A stretch of 62,592 nucleotides of DNA, counting the filler, from Dugesia japonica (lineage: Eukaryota): NCBI GenBank assembly GCA_001938525.1. It is 6 parts of 6 records of this genome, joined end to end, with 100 filler letters (N's around TTAATTAATTAA, not from the genome) between each part and the next. Parts side by side here need not be neighbours in the genome. Positions count along the whole stretch, not along the records: positions 1 to 9,439 come from MQRL01601026.1; positions 9,540 to 21,271 come from MQRL01606331.1; positions 21,372 to 31,054 come from MQRL01507535.1; 3 more parts are not named here. One strand, given 5' to 3'. Below are positions 4,321-21,518 of the stretch, piece after piece. Numbering within the stretch: position 1 is the stretch's first letter; each line of letters starts with the position of its first letter. A model generated the notes under the pieces. The model saw only the letters and a list, made by a program, of their open reading frames with translations. It did not search any database and had not been told where the DNA came from. A program made the translations under genes and the position numbers.

Positions 4321-5282
4321 AAAATACACAATCTTGCCATATCTCCGATACATTTTCGTTGTCTTTACTAAAGTTGAGGTTTAAACATACAACAATACAC
4401 ATATAACATACACACATATATACATGAGATCAATCAAATCAATATTCGAATTCAAACCCATTCAAGTTCAGAGATAACCCATCCAATTATCTTATGTCAA
4501 CATTTAACTTTGATTTTGTTATTTTATTATTGATTGTTCGAACCCATTCGAGTTCATCCAATCATCCTATATCAGCATTTGACATTGATTTTGGATTTTT
4601 ATATTATTCAATATGACTTTGTTAATTTTATTATTTTTGTTAGGGTGAAACATCCGATGTGGGAAGAAAATTGAGGCCAAGGGCTCAAAACATATACTCA
4701 TATAGAGAAGTGGATCAAAAAGGAAGTCCAATAAGAACAAATGGTGGTAGAGAAAATTACAATAAATTTTCTGGGCAACAAGTGACTGAAATAACGGGTA
4801 ACAAATACCGAAAACGAAGAAAAAATTAGTTTGAAAATCCTCAATGAACAAATATAACCCTCATCGAAGTATTAATTAGAAAATTATTAAAATTAATATT
4901 AAATTACGAAAACATTGTTTTTATGATTTAAACTGATTCGTTGGGCGCGCCTTTCTAGGTTTAGTTTTACTAGTAGAATAGTAGTATGAACGCTGTAGTC
5001 TGCAAGGTAGTTATCAACTAAACTCTTGATACAATTAAGGTAAAGTAAGCTTATTTTCCAGTATCATAGGCATAGATAGTAAAGTGAGAATAGATCTACT
5101 CATGGCGGGTTTTCCGTCGAGTATTCTAGTATTTTCCATCGTTATCCACCTAGGAATATGCAGGAACGACCCGACTTAAAGGCCTGGAATAAGTAAATGA
5201 TGATTTTACGTTCAAGAGGGAGGGCATGAAGATTTATATTCTTTTCTTTACAATTAATATTAAATCTTATTATATTTAGATA

Positions 5283-5468
5283 ATGTCGACAGAGTTAAGA
5301 AGTGCCCTTCACACCATTCGAAAACAGCGCAAGACCACTCGTCTTAAACAATTACTCGCTCATCTTTTATCGCGAGACAGGATCGAACATTCCGATGAGA
5401 CTGACTTGTGCTGTTTCGTCGAGATGTTCCCCCTGTATAAGCTTGTAGACCTCGACGAAAAATGTTAG
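5283..5468 (+). CDS. LTR-embedded mini-ORF (61 aa), unknown function
   Basis: ATG directly after an acceptor-like tatttAG. GC-richer island inside LTR A. Confidence 0.35.
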   Translation: MSTELRSALHTIRKQRKTTRLKQLLAHLLSRDRIEHSDETDLCCFVEMFPLYKLVDLDEKC

Positions 5469-5667
5469 CAAACCGCGTGTGAAAAACAACAGTTGCCATG
5501 GTCTAATTTAAATATATATGAACTACTTTTAAATTTTAGTTCTGACTTCGTTTTATTTTAATTGGGTTATTAAATTATTATTTTTATGATCGACTATTTT
5601 GGCATATTTTACTATTTAAATATTCACTACCAGGATAGAACACAAAATTATGTTTAGTATTTACAGG

Positions 5668-16530: not shown

Positions 16531-18559
16531 GCTCTCTAAAATTTAGAAGAAGAAAGTTCATTTTTAAAATATTCGGAAAGTTAGAAAAGCTATTGTGGAA
16601 TTTCTAACTAATTGAAAAAAGAGTAATCACTTATCAACATTTGCGCAATTTACCAATTACGTAAAGGAGAATTATTGGAAAAGAAGCTTGCATAAAATCC
16701 CCTTGCAAATACTTGCGTGTAAGGTCGTTATTTCAACTAAGTTAATTAATCGAAGTATTATTTCGACTTACAGAGGAAGAATATTTCGTCAGTTAGGAAA
16801 GGAATAGAGCCAGTAGGAACCAATTGTATTCGGAATAAAAGAAGAATTATCATCCAGTTGTTTATTCGTCGTTGCCGCAGATCCTCAAGAACCAATTTTA
16901 AAGTAGTTATTTGTCATATTTATTATTTATGAATATGTTAATTGTTGATGTATTAAAATTTAACTAACGTTTAGTTTTTATCTTAAAAAAAATTTATATA
17001 AAACTAATTTATGTTGGTATTTATTATTACGATCATCACTCCAATATTTTTTATATGAATAGGCACTGTCATTGGATTCTCCAATTGGATTAATACTGTT
17101 TTTAGTAACTTACTATTATAATGAAAATCATTTAATTTCTCGTAATCCAGTCGTAGATTATGTCCGTATATATCTCGGAGTAATAGCACACACCACACAC
17201 CTGGATTTAGTGTTGATGCTAAGGATTGTAACTCTCAGTATGATGATTAACAATTATTAAAAGACGTAATCGAGAAATATATGTGTTCGTGTTGTGTATC
17301 TTATTATCAAACACACTGCATCATCGTGAGTCACTCATCGAATCCATAGGCATTTCCAAACTAACTATACTAGTTTAATTTCAGATAAATTATTGTGTAA
17401 CACTTTGAGTAAGATACATTCGTTTGGAAAATAATTAACTTAGTATTCGTGGATTGATGATTATCGTGTATTAATGGAGTTTCCTGAACATGAATTATGT
17501 TAATAATCTCCTAAAAGATGGTTGGAATCCAGTTACATGTTGATTATGTCACCAATCAGTAGCCTGGAAAAATCACTCCTATGAATCAGAAAAGTCTAGT
17601 TAGCCGTAACTCCGTTTTTATATAAAATTGTGTTCATTGAGTTCATCAGCTCTATAATCTAACGGTGTTAATCAGTAAATCAATTATTGTTGAAACCATG
17701 GGAATTTATAAATGGAAATTACTGACAATACTTTCACCGTGGCAATCAACTGTCTAGATCTATATTTGGTATCTAATAGGATGTTTGATAATTGTCTAAT
17801 AAATACAGTTATTAGATTTAAATTGATTCTTTGTATCATCTTATTAATTTATCAATCTCACTGTCGAAGTTACCTCTAGCATGATCAGGACAGTAATTCC
17901 TCAAGCTGGTTTAATTTTTTTTATCCTGCCAATCTATTGTGAAAATATTTTTTTTGACCTAGTGTCCATCCTCTTTGTGCTGTTAACAACGTTTTAAATG
18001 AGATACTTATGAATCATAAACTTCTATTATTTAAATCACCAAGGTTTCAGTTAAATTATTTATGGAGTATCATGGAGAATCCTTTTAAGTTTTTCAGCGG
18101 AGTGTGGGAATCAGGTTGTGAAACAACAATGAATTGTCACCAATCAGTATGTTTCTATTCATGAGATCAGGGTAATGTGAGGTTCGCTGTGATAAACTCC
18201 GAACTATTACCTGTATGTCACCATCCATGGAAGCACATCTTAGATTGATATTGTGAGGGATAGTAACATTGATATCATTACTCATAGGGTGTGTCCAACT
18301 TGAACTTAATTCGCGTAAAACGTTCTTTTCAAATAAAAGATGCCTCTTGAACCTCTTATGGTGGATAAGAGTACCCAAACTTCACAAACTTAATTATTCG
18401 TCTGTTGACCGTCCCTGTAAATAAATGTTTTACATATATATGTGGCTTATATTCATTTATCGATTTCCCTTTTTATTCTGCTAATAATGATTTTGTCTAT
18501 GTATAATTTAAGACCGCAGTAGTTGCTTGAATTGGTATTTAATGTTTTGAATTATTTAG

Positions 18560-18951
18560 TCCAACGAATAATAATCCCCAACAGTCTAAAGCGTTGTCAC
18601 CGAATCATCCGGAGGCTACTTCTAAAACAACACTACAAACGCAAATCAGAGCGTGCCTTGTTAAAACACCTCTCACAGAGAAATACATTGATAAAAAAGC
18701 TAGACACTATAATAAAAAAGCAAAGTGATCCAGCCGAACAAACAAAACAGCTCCTTCAAAACAAAGTTAACTTTTTAAAAAAGTACATCTCCAATCTGTC
18801 CCATCGATTGGGCAACGTGACCTATTTGCAATTGGACGATAATGATGATAGTGCAGAATTCGACTTTACGACTGAAGACAGCACAGTGTTTAATTTGTTA
18901 CCAGAAGAGCCGACCCAGTGGTTTGACCCGGGTGCTCTCGATGAATTGTGA
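18560..18951 (+). CDS. Intact LTR-terminal protein exon (~130 aa: basic helix, coiled coil, acidic tail ending QWFDPGALDEL)
   Basis: Open frame. Acceptor atttAG at 18558-18559, phase 1. Homologs in LTR A (6728-7085) and LTR C (41011-41070). Confidence 0.75.
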
Positions 18952-21518
18952 ATTGTAAAATACATTAGTTAATAATATTTTTTGGTTCATTTTACTCTTG
19001 AGGGAAAATAAGGAACCCAAATTAAAGGTGTACGAGTGTGAACCTCCCGTAAAGGCCAAAGGTCAACCACACTGCACTGAATATCTAACTTAGGGGCGTT
19101 AGATTAAATTCTTGAAAGGGATCCCCTGAGTGCCGTTTTTCCCCCGGCCATCGTCTTTTTCTATCATCAACTGAGGTGGAACCCCAACAATAATAATAAT
19201 AAAATTATAATAAAAAATAATAATCAATAATTCAAGGTGATATAATAAAAATTGATTAACACATTGCAGTAGATTGCATCAATGTTCCAACTATTAAACT
19301 AGAATTGTTATTTCACCAATTCTCTAATTAATTCATCTATGATGCAAATAATGCAAACAGAGATTTTGAAAATGTCTCTAGTTTATTTAAACCCTTTAAT
19401 TTTGCTCTAAAAAAATGCTCTATACTTATTAACATCATCTGGGGGATGTTTTTTAAAACTTCTTGATTATTTAAGCTTCGCGCTATGTAGCTAAAATATT
19501 TATGCAAAACAAATTAATACGACTTATCTGCTAAAAATCGTAACACTCATACTCTGATTTGCTGTAATCCAAATAATTAAATTACATTTCCTGTTCCGAC
19601 TTTATTTGCTTTATAGAATTTTCATTTTTTTAAAGTTCGGTGATGTTGGTGTGACTATTGAAAAACCAGTTTTGTTTGATATTCAAAAATTTAATTAAAA
19701 TAAGAATATTACAAATCAAAAATATTTAAAAACGTTAAAAATGAATATTAATTTGAAAATATTTGATTAATATTAATAAATGTTTTATAACTAATGTTGA
19801 AATAATTAACATAAAATTTAAATAGCTAAAGGAAATAGATAAATACAAATTTTAAAATAGATTTTAGAAAAACATTAAATTATGTGTTATTGATTTCTTT
19901 GTTCTCCACTATTAAATTCAATATACGGAATATAACGCAATACAGAATTTATCAATTTATTACTATAATAAAACTTAAAATTTTATCCAAAATAATTAAT
20001 TATTACACAATATTATAATTCCACCAGATTAATTAGTTATACCATTTGCACATCAATTTTAAAATTTTGTTTATATATTTCACAAATATGTCATTTTCGA
20101 ACTTAAAAAAATAAAAAATGAGTGACTTTAATATATTTTATTATAAATTTTAATAATAGACTATACAAAAAAAAGTAAACCTAAATGTCAGGAATGATAA
20201 ATAAAACAGTTTAATTGAAATGTATTTTGAAAATTTTACGAATTAAAAGATGCTGCATCAGCACTTAACACAAAATACAATACAGTGTTGAATAATGTGG
20301 ACGAATTAGAGAAGTCGTTAAAAAATTTTTTGGGTATTTCTGAAGCAGGTTAACCATATATATTATAAATAAAATTCGTCTACATATTCTTATTCTAATT
20401 TTGTGTATTATTAGATTTCATTTTATATTTAATTGCATTTATAATATAAAATTTATATTTCAAAATTGGAATGCAAAAATTTAAAATTGACTTTCAAATG
20501 GTATAATACAACATTACAAATTTCCAATATTAAAATTATGATTACAATCTAAAAAATTTACCGTAATTACAATTGTACAATGTACGAGAATATTCTCTTT
20601 ATTTAAATTGTTCTACACAAAAGTTTTTAATATTAAGACAAGCTTTTATTCATACAAAATTTTTCTTAAATTCAACAAAATTGCTCCTCATAATTTGAAA
20701 ATTATTTTAATAAATTGAAGTAAAATATAGTTTGATTAAATAAATATCCTGTTATGGCGCTTAAAACATGAAGTTAATCTATGTAAGTTTGTTTAGATAA
20801 AAATTTTCTAAAATAATTTTTCAAAAAGAATAATGGAATAATAAACCTGTTTGAATAGCTTAAGTTTTAAATATGTATTTTATTTTTGTGTTGAAGAATT
20901 AATAACCGGGAATGAATACTGATAACTTGCGAACCAATTATTCTACCAGTACCGATATTTATATATAATATAAGAAAAGAATCAAAAAATTATTAAATTA
21001 AGGTGGTAAAACTTTAAAAATGACATGTAGTAAAAAATGGGATGAATAAAATTATTGTGTTCAACCTGTTTTCAACAGTCAATGTTGCGATTTTTAGCAG
21101 AATCACTAGACGTTTGAATAGATTAATCAATAACACCACGTTGGTCCACAAGCATTTATTAAATTGAAAGGATAACTAAATTGTTATTTTTTAAAAAAAT
21201 TAATTTATCGCAATTTTCAATTTTAAAAAATAAAAGAATAAATTTTAAAAAAGTATTTAAAATTAACTCTTNNNNNNNNNNNNNNNNNNNNNNNNNNNNN
21301 NNNNNNNNNNNNNNNTTAATTAATTAANNNNNNNNNNNNNNNNNNNNNNNNNNNNNNNNNNNNNNNNNNNNTTATGATAATCAAATATTGATTTGACCCG
21401 TATGAACATTGTGAATTATACAATATATTTCTCGAATTATTGAGTCACTTATAATTGTCACTTTTATTATAATACAATTTTATTAATTTGGATTTAGTTC
21501 TCGATAATAATAATGATG

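What the first reader, a model, noticed from the sequence alone, without database searches (positions are those of the whole stretch)
4638..19189. Giant LTRs that are themselves multi-gene expression cassettes encoding conserved unknown proteins
Seen: LTR copies A (4638-7322), B (15841-19189), C (40779-42465, minus) and a partial copy (1-1866) are very divergent in DNA, yet carry homologous small ORFs. The terminal ORF is about half identical between A and B (SLKRC...ERALL..LSQRN.LIKKLD...QTKQLLQ.KV.FLK.YI...QW.DPGALD.L*). Its acidic motif survives in C (WDSQDEEAAFNFTT vs WNDNDDEADFNF vs LDDNDDSAEFDFTT). The penultimate ORF aligns without gaps between 1518-1843 and 6259-6653. In B and C the TATA box is only ~670 bp into the LTR, so the ORFs lie downstream of the promoter. 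Established: LTRs are normally non-coding, and giant gypsy elements with multi-kb LTRs (Burro) are described in planarians. Inference: every solo LTR would be a self-contained transcription unit spreading several accessory genes without gag/pol.
Basis: partly seen in the sequence, partly recalled or inferred. Interest (0 to 1): 0.88.

Follow-up and report, generated by a model that had tools for sequence, protein, structure and literature searches.

The report
Spliced protein gene inside giant LTRs
The unusually long end repeats of a jumping gene here contain a protein-coding stretch that evolution has preserved, likely the last exon of a spliced regulatory gene, but the one copy checked against RNA is broken and nearly silent.

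Summary
A (4638-7322), B (15841-19189) and C (40779-42465, minus) are real related LTR-like units: TGTT...AACA ends and a shared ~190-nt 3' tail. One protein inside them is real. Over 120 aligned A/B codons synonymous sites are saturated (pS 0.81) while pN is 0.26; its acidic motif survives in C. This ORF has no usable ATG. It starts at the same phase-1 splice acceptor in A and B, and a conserved 10-codon ATG block upstream ends at a phase-1 GT in both, so it is likely an exon of a spliced gene. The claimed homology of 1518-1843 with 6259-6653 is chance level (12/107 identical; 300/2000 shuffles score as well), and 1-1866 is not shown to be an LTR. No other island is shared between copies. In three RNA runs depth over A's islands was 0-0.7, against 79-224 on the neighbouring lipase gene, and no splice joint in A was listed, so splicing is untested and A is a frameshifted, silent copy. 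No homologue was found anywhere. Verdict: a real LTR-borne accessory gene, analogous to MMTV sag; 'solo LTRs as active multi-gene cassettes' is not supported.

The parts
4638..7322 (+). LTR copy A, apparently solo, in T/A-rich flanks (TTTT on both sides; too low in complexity to call a target-site duplication)
15841..19189 (+). LTR copy B, likely a 3' LTR (purine-rich tract and coding internal region upstream, TAA-type repeat downstream)
40779..42465 (-). LTR copy C, shorter and more diverged, apparently solo in a TAA-type microsatellite
18560..18951 (+). Terminal coding exon in B: open, no Met, phase-1 acceptor (tttag|T); basic N-part, two predicted helices with heptad leucines, acidic aromatic tail
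6728..7085 (+). Terminal coding exon in A: same acceptor position and phase as in B; broken by a frameshift near 6885-6897
41026..41070 (-). Remnant of the terminal exon in C (acidic W/F motif)
6564..6594 (+). ATG block MPLEPLMVDK in A, ending at a candidate phase-1 donor (A|GTAC); also the in-frame end of island 6259-6653
18340..18370 (+). Same ATG block in B, same candidate donor; in-frame stop two codons upstream
6595..6727 (+). Candidate intron in A (133 nt, about 25% GC); inferred, not seen in RNA
18371..18559 (+). Candidate intron in B (189 nt, 29% GC); inferred
6259..6653 (+). Coiled-coil-like open island in A with phase-1 acceptor; stop-free beyond chance (7/500 shuffles); upstream part has no counterpart in B
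5280..6081 (+). Two GC-rich islands in A (5280-5500, 5634-6081) with phase-compatible candidate donor/acceptor and stops at 5466 and 5911; coding status unproven (334/500 and 45/500 shuffles)
16524..16530 (+). TATA box in B, 684 nt into the LTR, preceded by several CCAAT motifs
41799..41806 (-). TATA box in C, 660 nt into the LTR
4853..4858 (+). Weak TATA-like motif in A (216 nt in), context resembling C
7098..7103 (+). AATAAA just after the terminal stop in A (also in C at 40996; no canonical hexamer at this place in B)
7135..7322 (+). Conserved 3' tail of A, no codon signature, likely cis-acting R/U5-type sequence
19001..19189 (+). Conserved 3' tail of B
15821..15840 (+). Purine-rich tract (15/20) directly before B; PPT candidate
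13242..15820 (+). Internal region upstream of B with same-strand coding blocks: coiled-coil ORFs, an unknown 142-aa ORF, a C3HC4 RING finger (Pfam zf-C3HC4_3, E 1e-8); a 30-N gap lies at 15295-15324
1..1866 (+). Region 'D': repeated DNA with TATA (266), GC-rich islands, short AT-rich spacers and AATAAA; similar layout to A but membership in the LTR family not shown
1867..2267 (-). 5' fragment of a related LTR (same TGTTGGGGT.AAAC start), sitting in the integrase part of a decayed gypsy-type pol (2268-4500, minus)
11400..11728 (-). 5' fragment of another related LTR with a PPT-like tract before it (left end approximate)

Best explanation
These 1.7-3.3 kb terminal repeats carry a protein-coding region kept by purifying selection, which is likely the last exon of a spliced accessory gene of a giant, probably Gypsy-type, retrotransposon. 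Shown: the LTR-like ends, the conserved non-coding tail, the codon-level conservation, and that the terminal ORF has no start codon and begins at the same acceptor and phase in A and B. Inferred: a TATA promoter about 670 nt into the LTR makes an RNA; an upstream exon ending in MPLEPLMVDK is spliced (phase 1) to the terminal exon; the RNA is cut at the AATAAA behind the stop. Upstream islands are further, fast-turnover exons or genes that differ between subfamilies. The product is predicted to have a basic segment, two long amphipathic helices and an acidic tail with conserved W/F/L, so my best guess for its job is a dimeric transcriptional or anti-silencing regulator of the element itself (about 25-30% for that role). 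Selection most likely acted while full-length elements replicated; because the introns persist in the LTR, the packaged RNA would have to keep them. The gene probably entered the LTR by the LTR boundary moving into the 3' accessory-gene block, as with MMTV sag. The solo copies here are dead by-products.
For: pS 0.81 vs pN 0.26 over 120 codons, mismatches by codon position 40/23/74, pN/pS bootstrap 0.23-0.43; shifted frames give pS 0.33/0.19, pN 0.38/0.44 and 17/16 stops; the adjacent tail shows no clear codon pattern. No Met in B's 142 open codons, and in A only at the break. A/B identity is 5/5 at the acceptor, 8/29 before it; 26/31 in the ATG block, 4/4 at donor +1..+4, 5/30 after. Phases match in both copies. 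Host donors are as degenerate: the RNA-confirmed lipase intron starts GTTGTT, and a host exon seems to end at GTACGT. B has a purine tract and same-strand accessory ORFs including a RING upstream. Contig depth over A is 110-600 against about 10 for the lipase gene, so the unit is repeated (not a copy number). Model: helices 7-53 and 60-84, unstructured acidic tail (pLDDT 52).
Against: No RNA support: depth over 5025-6908 averaged 0.37, 0.10 and 0 in three runs against 224, 79 and 95 on the lipase exon, with no RNA joint in A among the 15 of 71 joints shown. Only A and D were laid, at 85% likeness or more, on 6-25% of each run, and the reads differ from the window by a few percent. The donor is weak and the conserved A|GTAC can also be read as Ser-Thr codons. 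The dN/dS rests on one pair of copies and on blocks chosen by protein similarity. No gag or pol is physically tied to these LTRs in the window. No homologue exists to inform function; bZIP_2 scores only E 0.33, far below cut-off; the fold is low-confidence.
Confidence: 0.6

Rival explanations
1. One reading: each LTR is a cassette of several independent small genes, and solo LTRs are active units spreading them without gag/pol.
For: GC-rich islands each followed by AATAAA; islands at 5283 and 5650 have their own ATG; TATA lies upstream of all islands in B and C.
Against: Only one protein region and a 12-codon block are shared between copies; the terminal ORF lacks an ATG; the D-A homology is chance level; A and C are broken; near-zero RNA over A.
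Confidence: 0.15
2. The gene is real but lies wholly in U3 with its own promoter, while the element's genomic RNA starts near the conserved 3' tail (short R, as in MMTV). Same gene, different LTR anatomy.
For: The last 190 nt are far more conserved than synonymous sites (about 0.15-0.3 vs saturated) and hold ATTAAA (B 19021, 19103) opposite AGTAAA in A. MMTV sag lies in U3 (PMC12548423, passages).
Against: The best TATA plus CCAAT cluster lies 660-684 nt into the LTR, no TATA was found in the tail, and AATAAA sits just before the tail in A and C.
Confidence: 0.12
3. The TG...CA units are not LTRs but stand-alone elements (for example Ginger-like DNA transposons or non-autonomous units) that carry a gene.
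For: No pol or primer-binding site is linked in the window; target-site duplications cannot be verified in the AT-rich flanks.
Against: Inverted ends are only 8-9 nt; B is joined to an internal coding region through a purine tract, and a similar tract precedes the 11728 end; no transposase domain in any island.
Confidence: 0.08
4. The islands are an operon resolved by spliced-leader trans-splicing.
For: Short AT-rich spacers with AATAAA followed by an acceptor. Flatworms trans-splice (recalled).
Against: The flatworm leader ends in AUG (recalled), which would need phase 0, whereas the terminal exon needs phase 1. No loose read ends at these acceptors were listed, but there were almost no reads.
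Confidence: 0.04
5. Neutral remnants of captured coding DNA.
For: A and C are broken; little RNA.
Against: Saturated synonymous sites with pN 0.26.
Confidence: 0.02

Closest known systems
MMTV sag (superantigen) gene in the LTR U3 (PMC12548423, passages read)
   Same: A protein gene wholly inside the LTR, present in both LTRs and in solo LTRs, often frameshifted in old copies.
   Different: No sequence relation found; here the ORF lies downstream of the apparent TATA and seems split by an intron that itself lies inside the LTR; host is an invertebrate-type AT-rich genome.
HIV/SIV nef and foamy-virus bet overlapping the 3' LTR U3 (recalled, no call)
   Same: 3' accessory genes expressed by splicing that reach into the LTR.
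   Different: Those only overlap U3 and start in the internal region; here promoter, exons and poly(A) signal all appear to be within the LTR.
Burro / GYPSM1 giant gypsy elements of planarians (PMC6431247 section 7 read whole)
   Same: Multi-kb LTRs implied (internal up to 25 kb, total over 30 kb); accessory ORFs; RING and coiled-coil (Smc-like) motifs, as in the region upstream of B.
   Different: That section describes extra domains in the polyprotein and in internal accessory ORFs and says nothing of coding in the LTR. No sequence comparison with Burro was possible, and the primary paper was not held.
Ogre (plants; LTRs 1.9-6.5 kb) and spliced ORF3 genes of bdelloid LTR elements (PMC5408684, passages)
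   Same: Very long LTRs; extra ORFs expressed from spliced messages.
   Different: In the passages read the extra ORFs are internal, not in the LTR.

Membership tests
LTR of an LTR retrotransposon | TG...CA ends with short inverted repeat | tested here: met
   three copies
LTR of an LTR retrotransposon | Polypurine tract before the 3' LTR | tested here: inconclusive
   15/20 purines before B, similar tract before 11728, but not abutting perfectly
LTR of an LTR retrotransposon | 4-6 bp target-site duplication | tested here: inconclusive
   A TTTT/TTTT in low-complexity DNA; C does not match
LTR of an LTR retrotransposon | Two near-identical copies flanking gag-pol, with primer-binding site | not testable with these tools
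   No genome held; window has gaps at 13192-13241 and 15295-15324
LTR of an LTR retrotransposon | Promoter and poly(A) signal in U3-R-U5 order | tested here: inconclusive
   Motifs present; no read starts or ends in A
Burro giant gypsy elements | About 5000-aa gag-env-pol polyprotein with MATH, BIR, BCL2, ankyrin | not testable with these tools
   No such region adjoins the LTRs in the window; a RING and coiled coils lie upstream of B
Burro giant gypsy elements | Sequence similarity to Burro/GYPSM1 | not testable with these tools
   No Burro sequence available; protein searches empty
Burro giant gypsy elements | Planarian host | not tested
   Organism is coded; low GC and TAA repeats fit but do not show it
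sag-like LTR-encoded gene (works-like) | ORF within LTR bounds under purifying selection | tested here: met
sag-like LTR-encoded gene (works-like) | Expressed mRNA or protein | tested here: inconclusive
bZIP transcription factors | Pfam bZIP match above cut-off | tested here: not met
   bZIP_2 11.5 bits vs cut-off 22.3 for one A piece, none for B

The most novel reading that the evidence does not exclude
A giant invertebrate retroelement keeps a complete intron-containing gene for its own trans-acting regulator downstream of the LTR promoter, in an R region of about 2 kb, so each young LTR, solo or not, can make the protein, and the element must package unspliced RNA to keep the introns.
Probability: 0.25. 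Interest if true: 0.8.

Novelty: new variant of a known kind. Interest (0 to 1): 0.57.

Why it matters
LTRs are annotated and masked as non-coding. A selected, homologue-free protein inside multi-kb LTRs of a high-copy family would be an overlooked regulator of transposon or host biology, present wherever an LTR is. An intron inside an LTR also implies a route for exporting and packaging unspliced RNA. Both points can be tested with existing long-read genomes and PIWI knock-down RNA data (LTR elements are de-repressed on smedwi-2 knock-down; PMC8532177, passages).

Tried and rejected
No whole genome was held, so copy-wide analysis was impossible. Homologue searches, all empty: B terminal ORF, near lengths only; profile of A+B against 1.84 billion representatives; 13717-14142; 5650-5910; metagenome and viral contigs; PDB sequences, one hit at E 0.64. 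ESM Atlas: only unnamed or generic coiled-coil neighbours at low recognition. Pfam: no island reaches a cut-off; 24 and 5 proteins scanned. Rfam: 0 hits in the window. The 3' tail does not fold better than shuffles (z +0.98); 4 of 30 consensus pairs show a two-sided change on 3 sequences, which is not evidence. Homodimer prediction gave no verdict. Fold search not run because the model is low-confidence. The look-up of sequencing runs listed no RNA holder. Rejected pairings: D4-A4, D4-terminal exon (640 and 897 of 2000), D2-A4 (809), and internal ORFs vs D (101 and 66 of 2000, not significant given 15 tests). LTR A as promoter of the lipase gene: read 5' ends lie at about 8795, 1.5 kb past A. 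The frameshift-aware script finished 3 of 24 planned comparisons before timing out; one search timed out and was rerun. Literature: nine searches showed no paper on coding inside planarian or other invertebrate retrotransposon LTRs; Grohme 2018 was not held and its text or supplements may annotate these ORFs. PMC6673714 and PMC11410931 (passages) were not informative on this.
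Full report
Setting. The window is an AT-rich, gapped eukaryotic scaffold with host genes such as a lipase at 9007 and an AAA ATPase at 57937. No whole genome is held.

The repeats are real. A, B and C start with TGTT(A/G)G and end with CCCCAACA at the stated coordinates; two more 5' ends of the same type lie on the minus strand at 2267 and 11728. 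DNA similarity is confined to the 3' part: 78% over 307 nt for A/B, 69% over 172 nt for A/C, plus the TATA context of B and C. B follows a purine-rich tract and a same-strand coding region with a RING finger (E 1e-8), which makes it a likely 3' LTR; a 30-N gap lies within that region. A and C look solo; their flanks are too simple to prove a target-site duplication. No gag or pol is tied to these LTRs in the window: the decayed pol at 2268-4500 is interrupted by one LTR end inside its integrase and so looks like a target, not the owner.

One protein is under selection. Over 120 codons in four gapless A/B blocks, pS is 0.81 (saturated) and pN 0.26; mismatches by codon position are 40/23/74; the pN/pS bootstrap range is 0.23-0.43. 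The two shifted frames give pN above pS and 16-17 stops. The neighbouring tail is more conserved overall and has no clear codon pattern in its three frames. The blocks were picked by protein similarity and come from one pair, which biases pN down, but the frame control and z-scores of 26-39 leave little doubt. A is broken by a frameshift near 6885-6897; B is open. In C only the acidic motif is detectable (0 and 9 of 2000 shuffles in the expected 400 nt; weaker over the whole window).

It looks like an exon. B's 142 open codons hold no Met, and A's pieces have one only at the break. Both copies have tttag|T 23 nt before the conserved SLKRC, needing phase 1; identity is 5/5 at the acceptor and 8/29 before it. 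Upstream, a 12-codon block (A 6564-6599, B 18340-18375) is identical in protein with six differences, all at third positions. Identity is 26/31 from its ATG to A|GTAC, 4/4 over GTAC and 5/30 afterwards, and that GT is phase 1 in both copies. The simplest reading is an intron of 133 nt (A) or 189 nt (B). In A the block is also the in-frame end of the 6259 island; in B an in-frame stop lies two codons before its ATG, so it may serve as the start there. The donor is weak, but the RNA-confirmed lipase intron also has a weak donor. I wrote these predictions down before looking at RNA.

What fails. The claimed homology between 1518-1843 and 6259-6653 is 12/107 identity; 300 of 2000 shuffles and 824 of 2000 heptad-preserving shuffles score as well. 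Other pairings of D also fail. D has a similar layout and TATA context and is repeated, but nothing shows it is an LTR. A's other islands have no counterpart in B or C, and B's middle is full of stops. Of 17 regions tested for stop depletion, four passed 2%: A 6259-6610 (7/500), B terminal (2/500) and two internal blocks upstream of B (9/500, 0/500).

RNA. I laid 4 of the 24 listed runs on 1-9400 at 85% likeness; B and C were not covered. The lipase control worked: depth 224, 79 and 95, intron 8967-9012 found in all three RNA runs. Over A's islands (5025-6908) mean depth was 0.37, 0.10 and 0, and in the strand-specific run mostly antisense. No RNA joint in A or D is among the 15 best-supported joints shown (56 were not shown). 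The few reads on the tail come from both strands, as expected for copies read passively. Run X2 behaves as DNA and shows A at 110-600 and the tail at 4,800-11,600 against about 10 for the lipase. Limits: 6-25% of each run was read, the reads differ from the window by a few percent, and more distant subfamilies fall below the cut. So A's subfamily is close to silent in these samples and the splice model is neither confirmed nor refuted.

The protein. No homologue was found among 5.8 billion proteins at near lengths, 1.84 billion representatives, contig collections or PDB. The model has helices at 7-53 and 60-84 and an unstructured acidic tail, mean pLDDT 52. The sequence shows a basic N-part, heptad leucines and an acidic tail with conserved W/F/L, the only part that survives in C. 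This resembles activation domains of viral transactivators (recalled), hence my guess of an element regulator; bZIP membership is not met.

Mechanism and odds. Coding inside the LTR-like unit under selection: about 0.9. Spliced exon: about 0.7. True LTRs of a giant Gypsy-type element: about 0.8. Regulator role: about 0.25-0.3. Selection probably acted in replicating full-length elements, with solo LTRs as leftovers. Persistence of an intron in an LTR means the packaged RNA kept it (follows from the reverse-transcription cycle). Whether the gene lies in a long R or in U3 with its own promoter is open.

Comparison. Genes in LTRs are known from MMTV sag (PMC12548423, passages) and, overlapping U3, from nef and bet (recalled). 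The Burro review section lists extra domains and internal accessory ORFs but not LTR coding. Nine searches found no report of this layout in invertebrate retrotransposons, but the primary Burro paper could not be read. Earlier notes of this scan describe LTR-borne genes in other genomes (unchecked AI notes), which suggests the trait recurs and lowers its singularity. I rate it a new variant of a known kind, interest 0.57.

Noticed in passing
window 13119-13138: A 20-nt unit with both LTR-type ends (TGTTGGG...CCCAACA) next to a TAA repeat; possibly a collapsed LTR. On the minus strand it is followed by 1.4 kb of non-coding DNA with short tandem repeats (12600-12830) and then the LTR start at 11728.
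   Followed up: no
window 1867-2267 (-): LTR 5' fragment with very high contig depth (32,000 vs about 10 for the lipase), abutting D in the opposite orientation; D could be an antisense cassette of this LTR type or an unrelated junction.
   Followed up: partly
window 526-1845: D has phase-compatible candidate splice sites (donor 986, acceptor 1518), the same exon-intron-terminal exon-AATAAA layout as A, without significant sequence similarity.
   Followed up: partly
window 17469-17566 and 18057-18150: A degenerate duplication inside LTR B's middle (period about 590 nt); not significant at protein level.
   Followed up: partly
window 13717-14440: Long stop-poor block (0/500 shuffles) with an unknown 142-aa ORF followed by an IAP/MDM2-type RING finger; no homologue found for the 142-aa ORF.
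   Followed up: partly
window 8795-9440: Expressed lipase gene, 5' ends near 8795, 46-nt intron 8967-9012 confirmed in three RNA runs.
   Followed up: yes
window 53700-57100: An ordinary decayed gypsy-type gag-pol (zf-CCHC, RT) inside an intron of a CDC48/VCP-like gene (52946-59800), itself interrupted near 56530-56640 by a short repeat.
   Followed up: no
window 20190-27170: Multi-exon host gene for a long helical protein with no Pfam match for its 375-aa exon (25172-26299).
   Followed up: no
window 35061-35576 (-): DDE_3 transposase fragment (Tc1/mariner type), E 4.6e-11.
   Followed up: no
window 29115-30060 and 30111-31054: 946-nt duplicate, 98% identical, across an N gap; probably an assembly artefact (two haplotypes).
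   Followed up: no
several N gaps, e.g. 9484-9495, 21316-21327: A TTAA-repeat linker sits inside several gaps, suggesting artificially joined contigs, so neighbourhoods across such gaps are unreliable.
   Followed up: no
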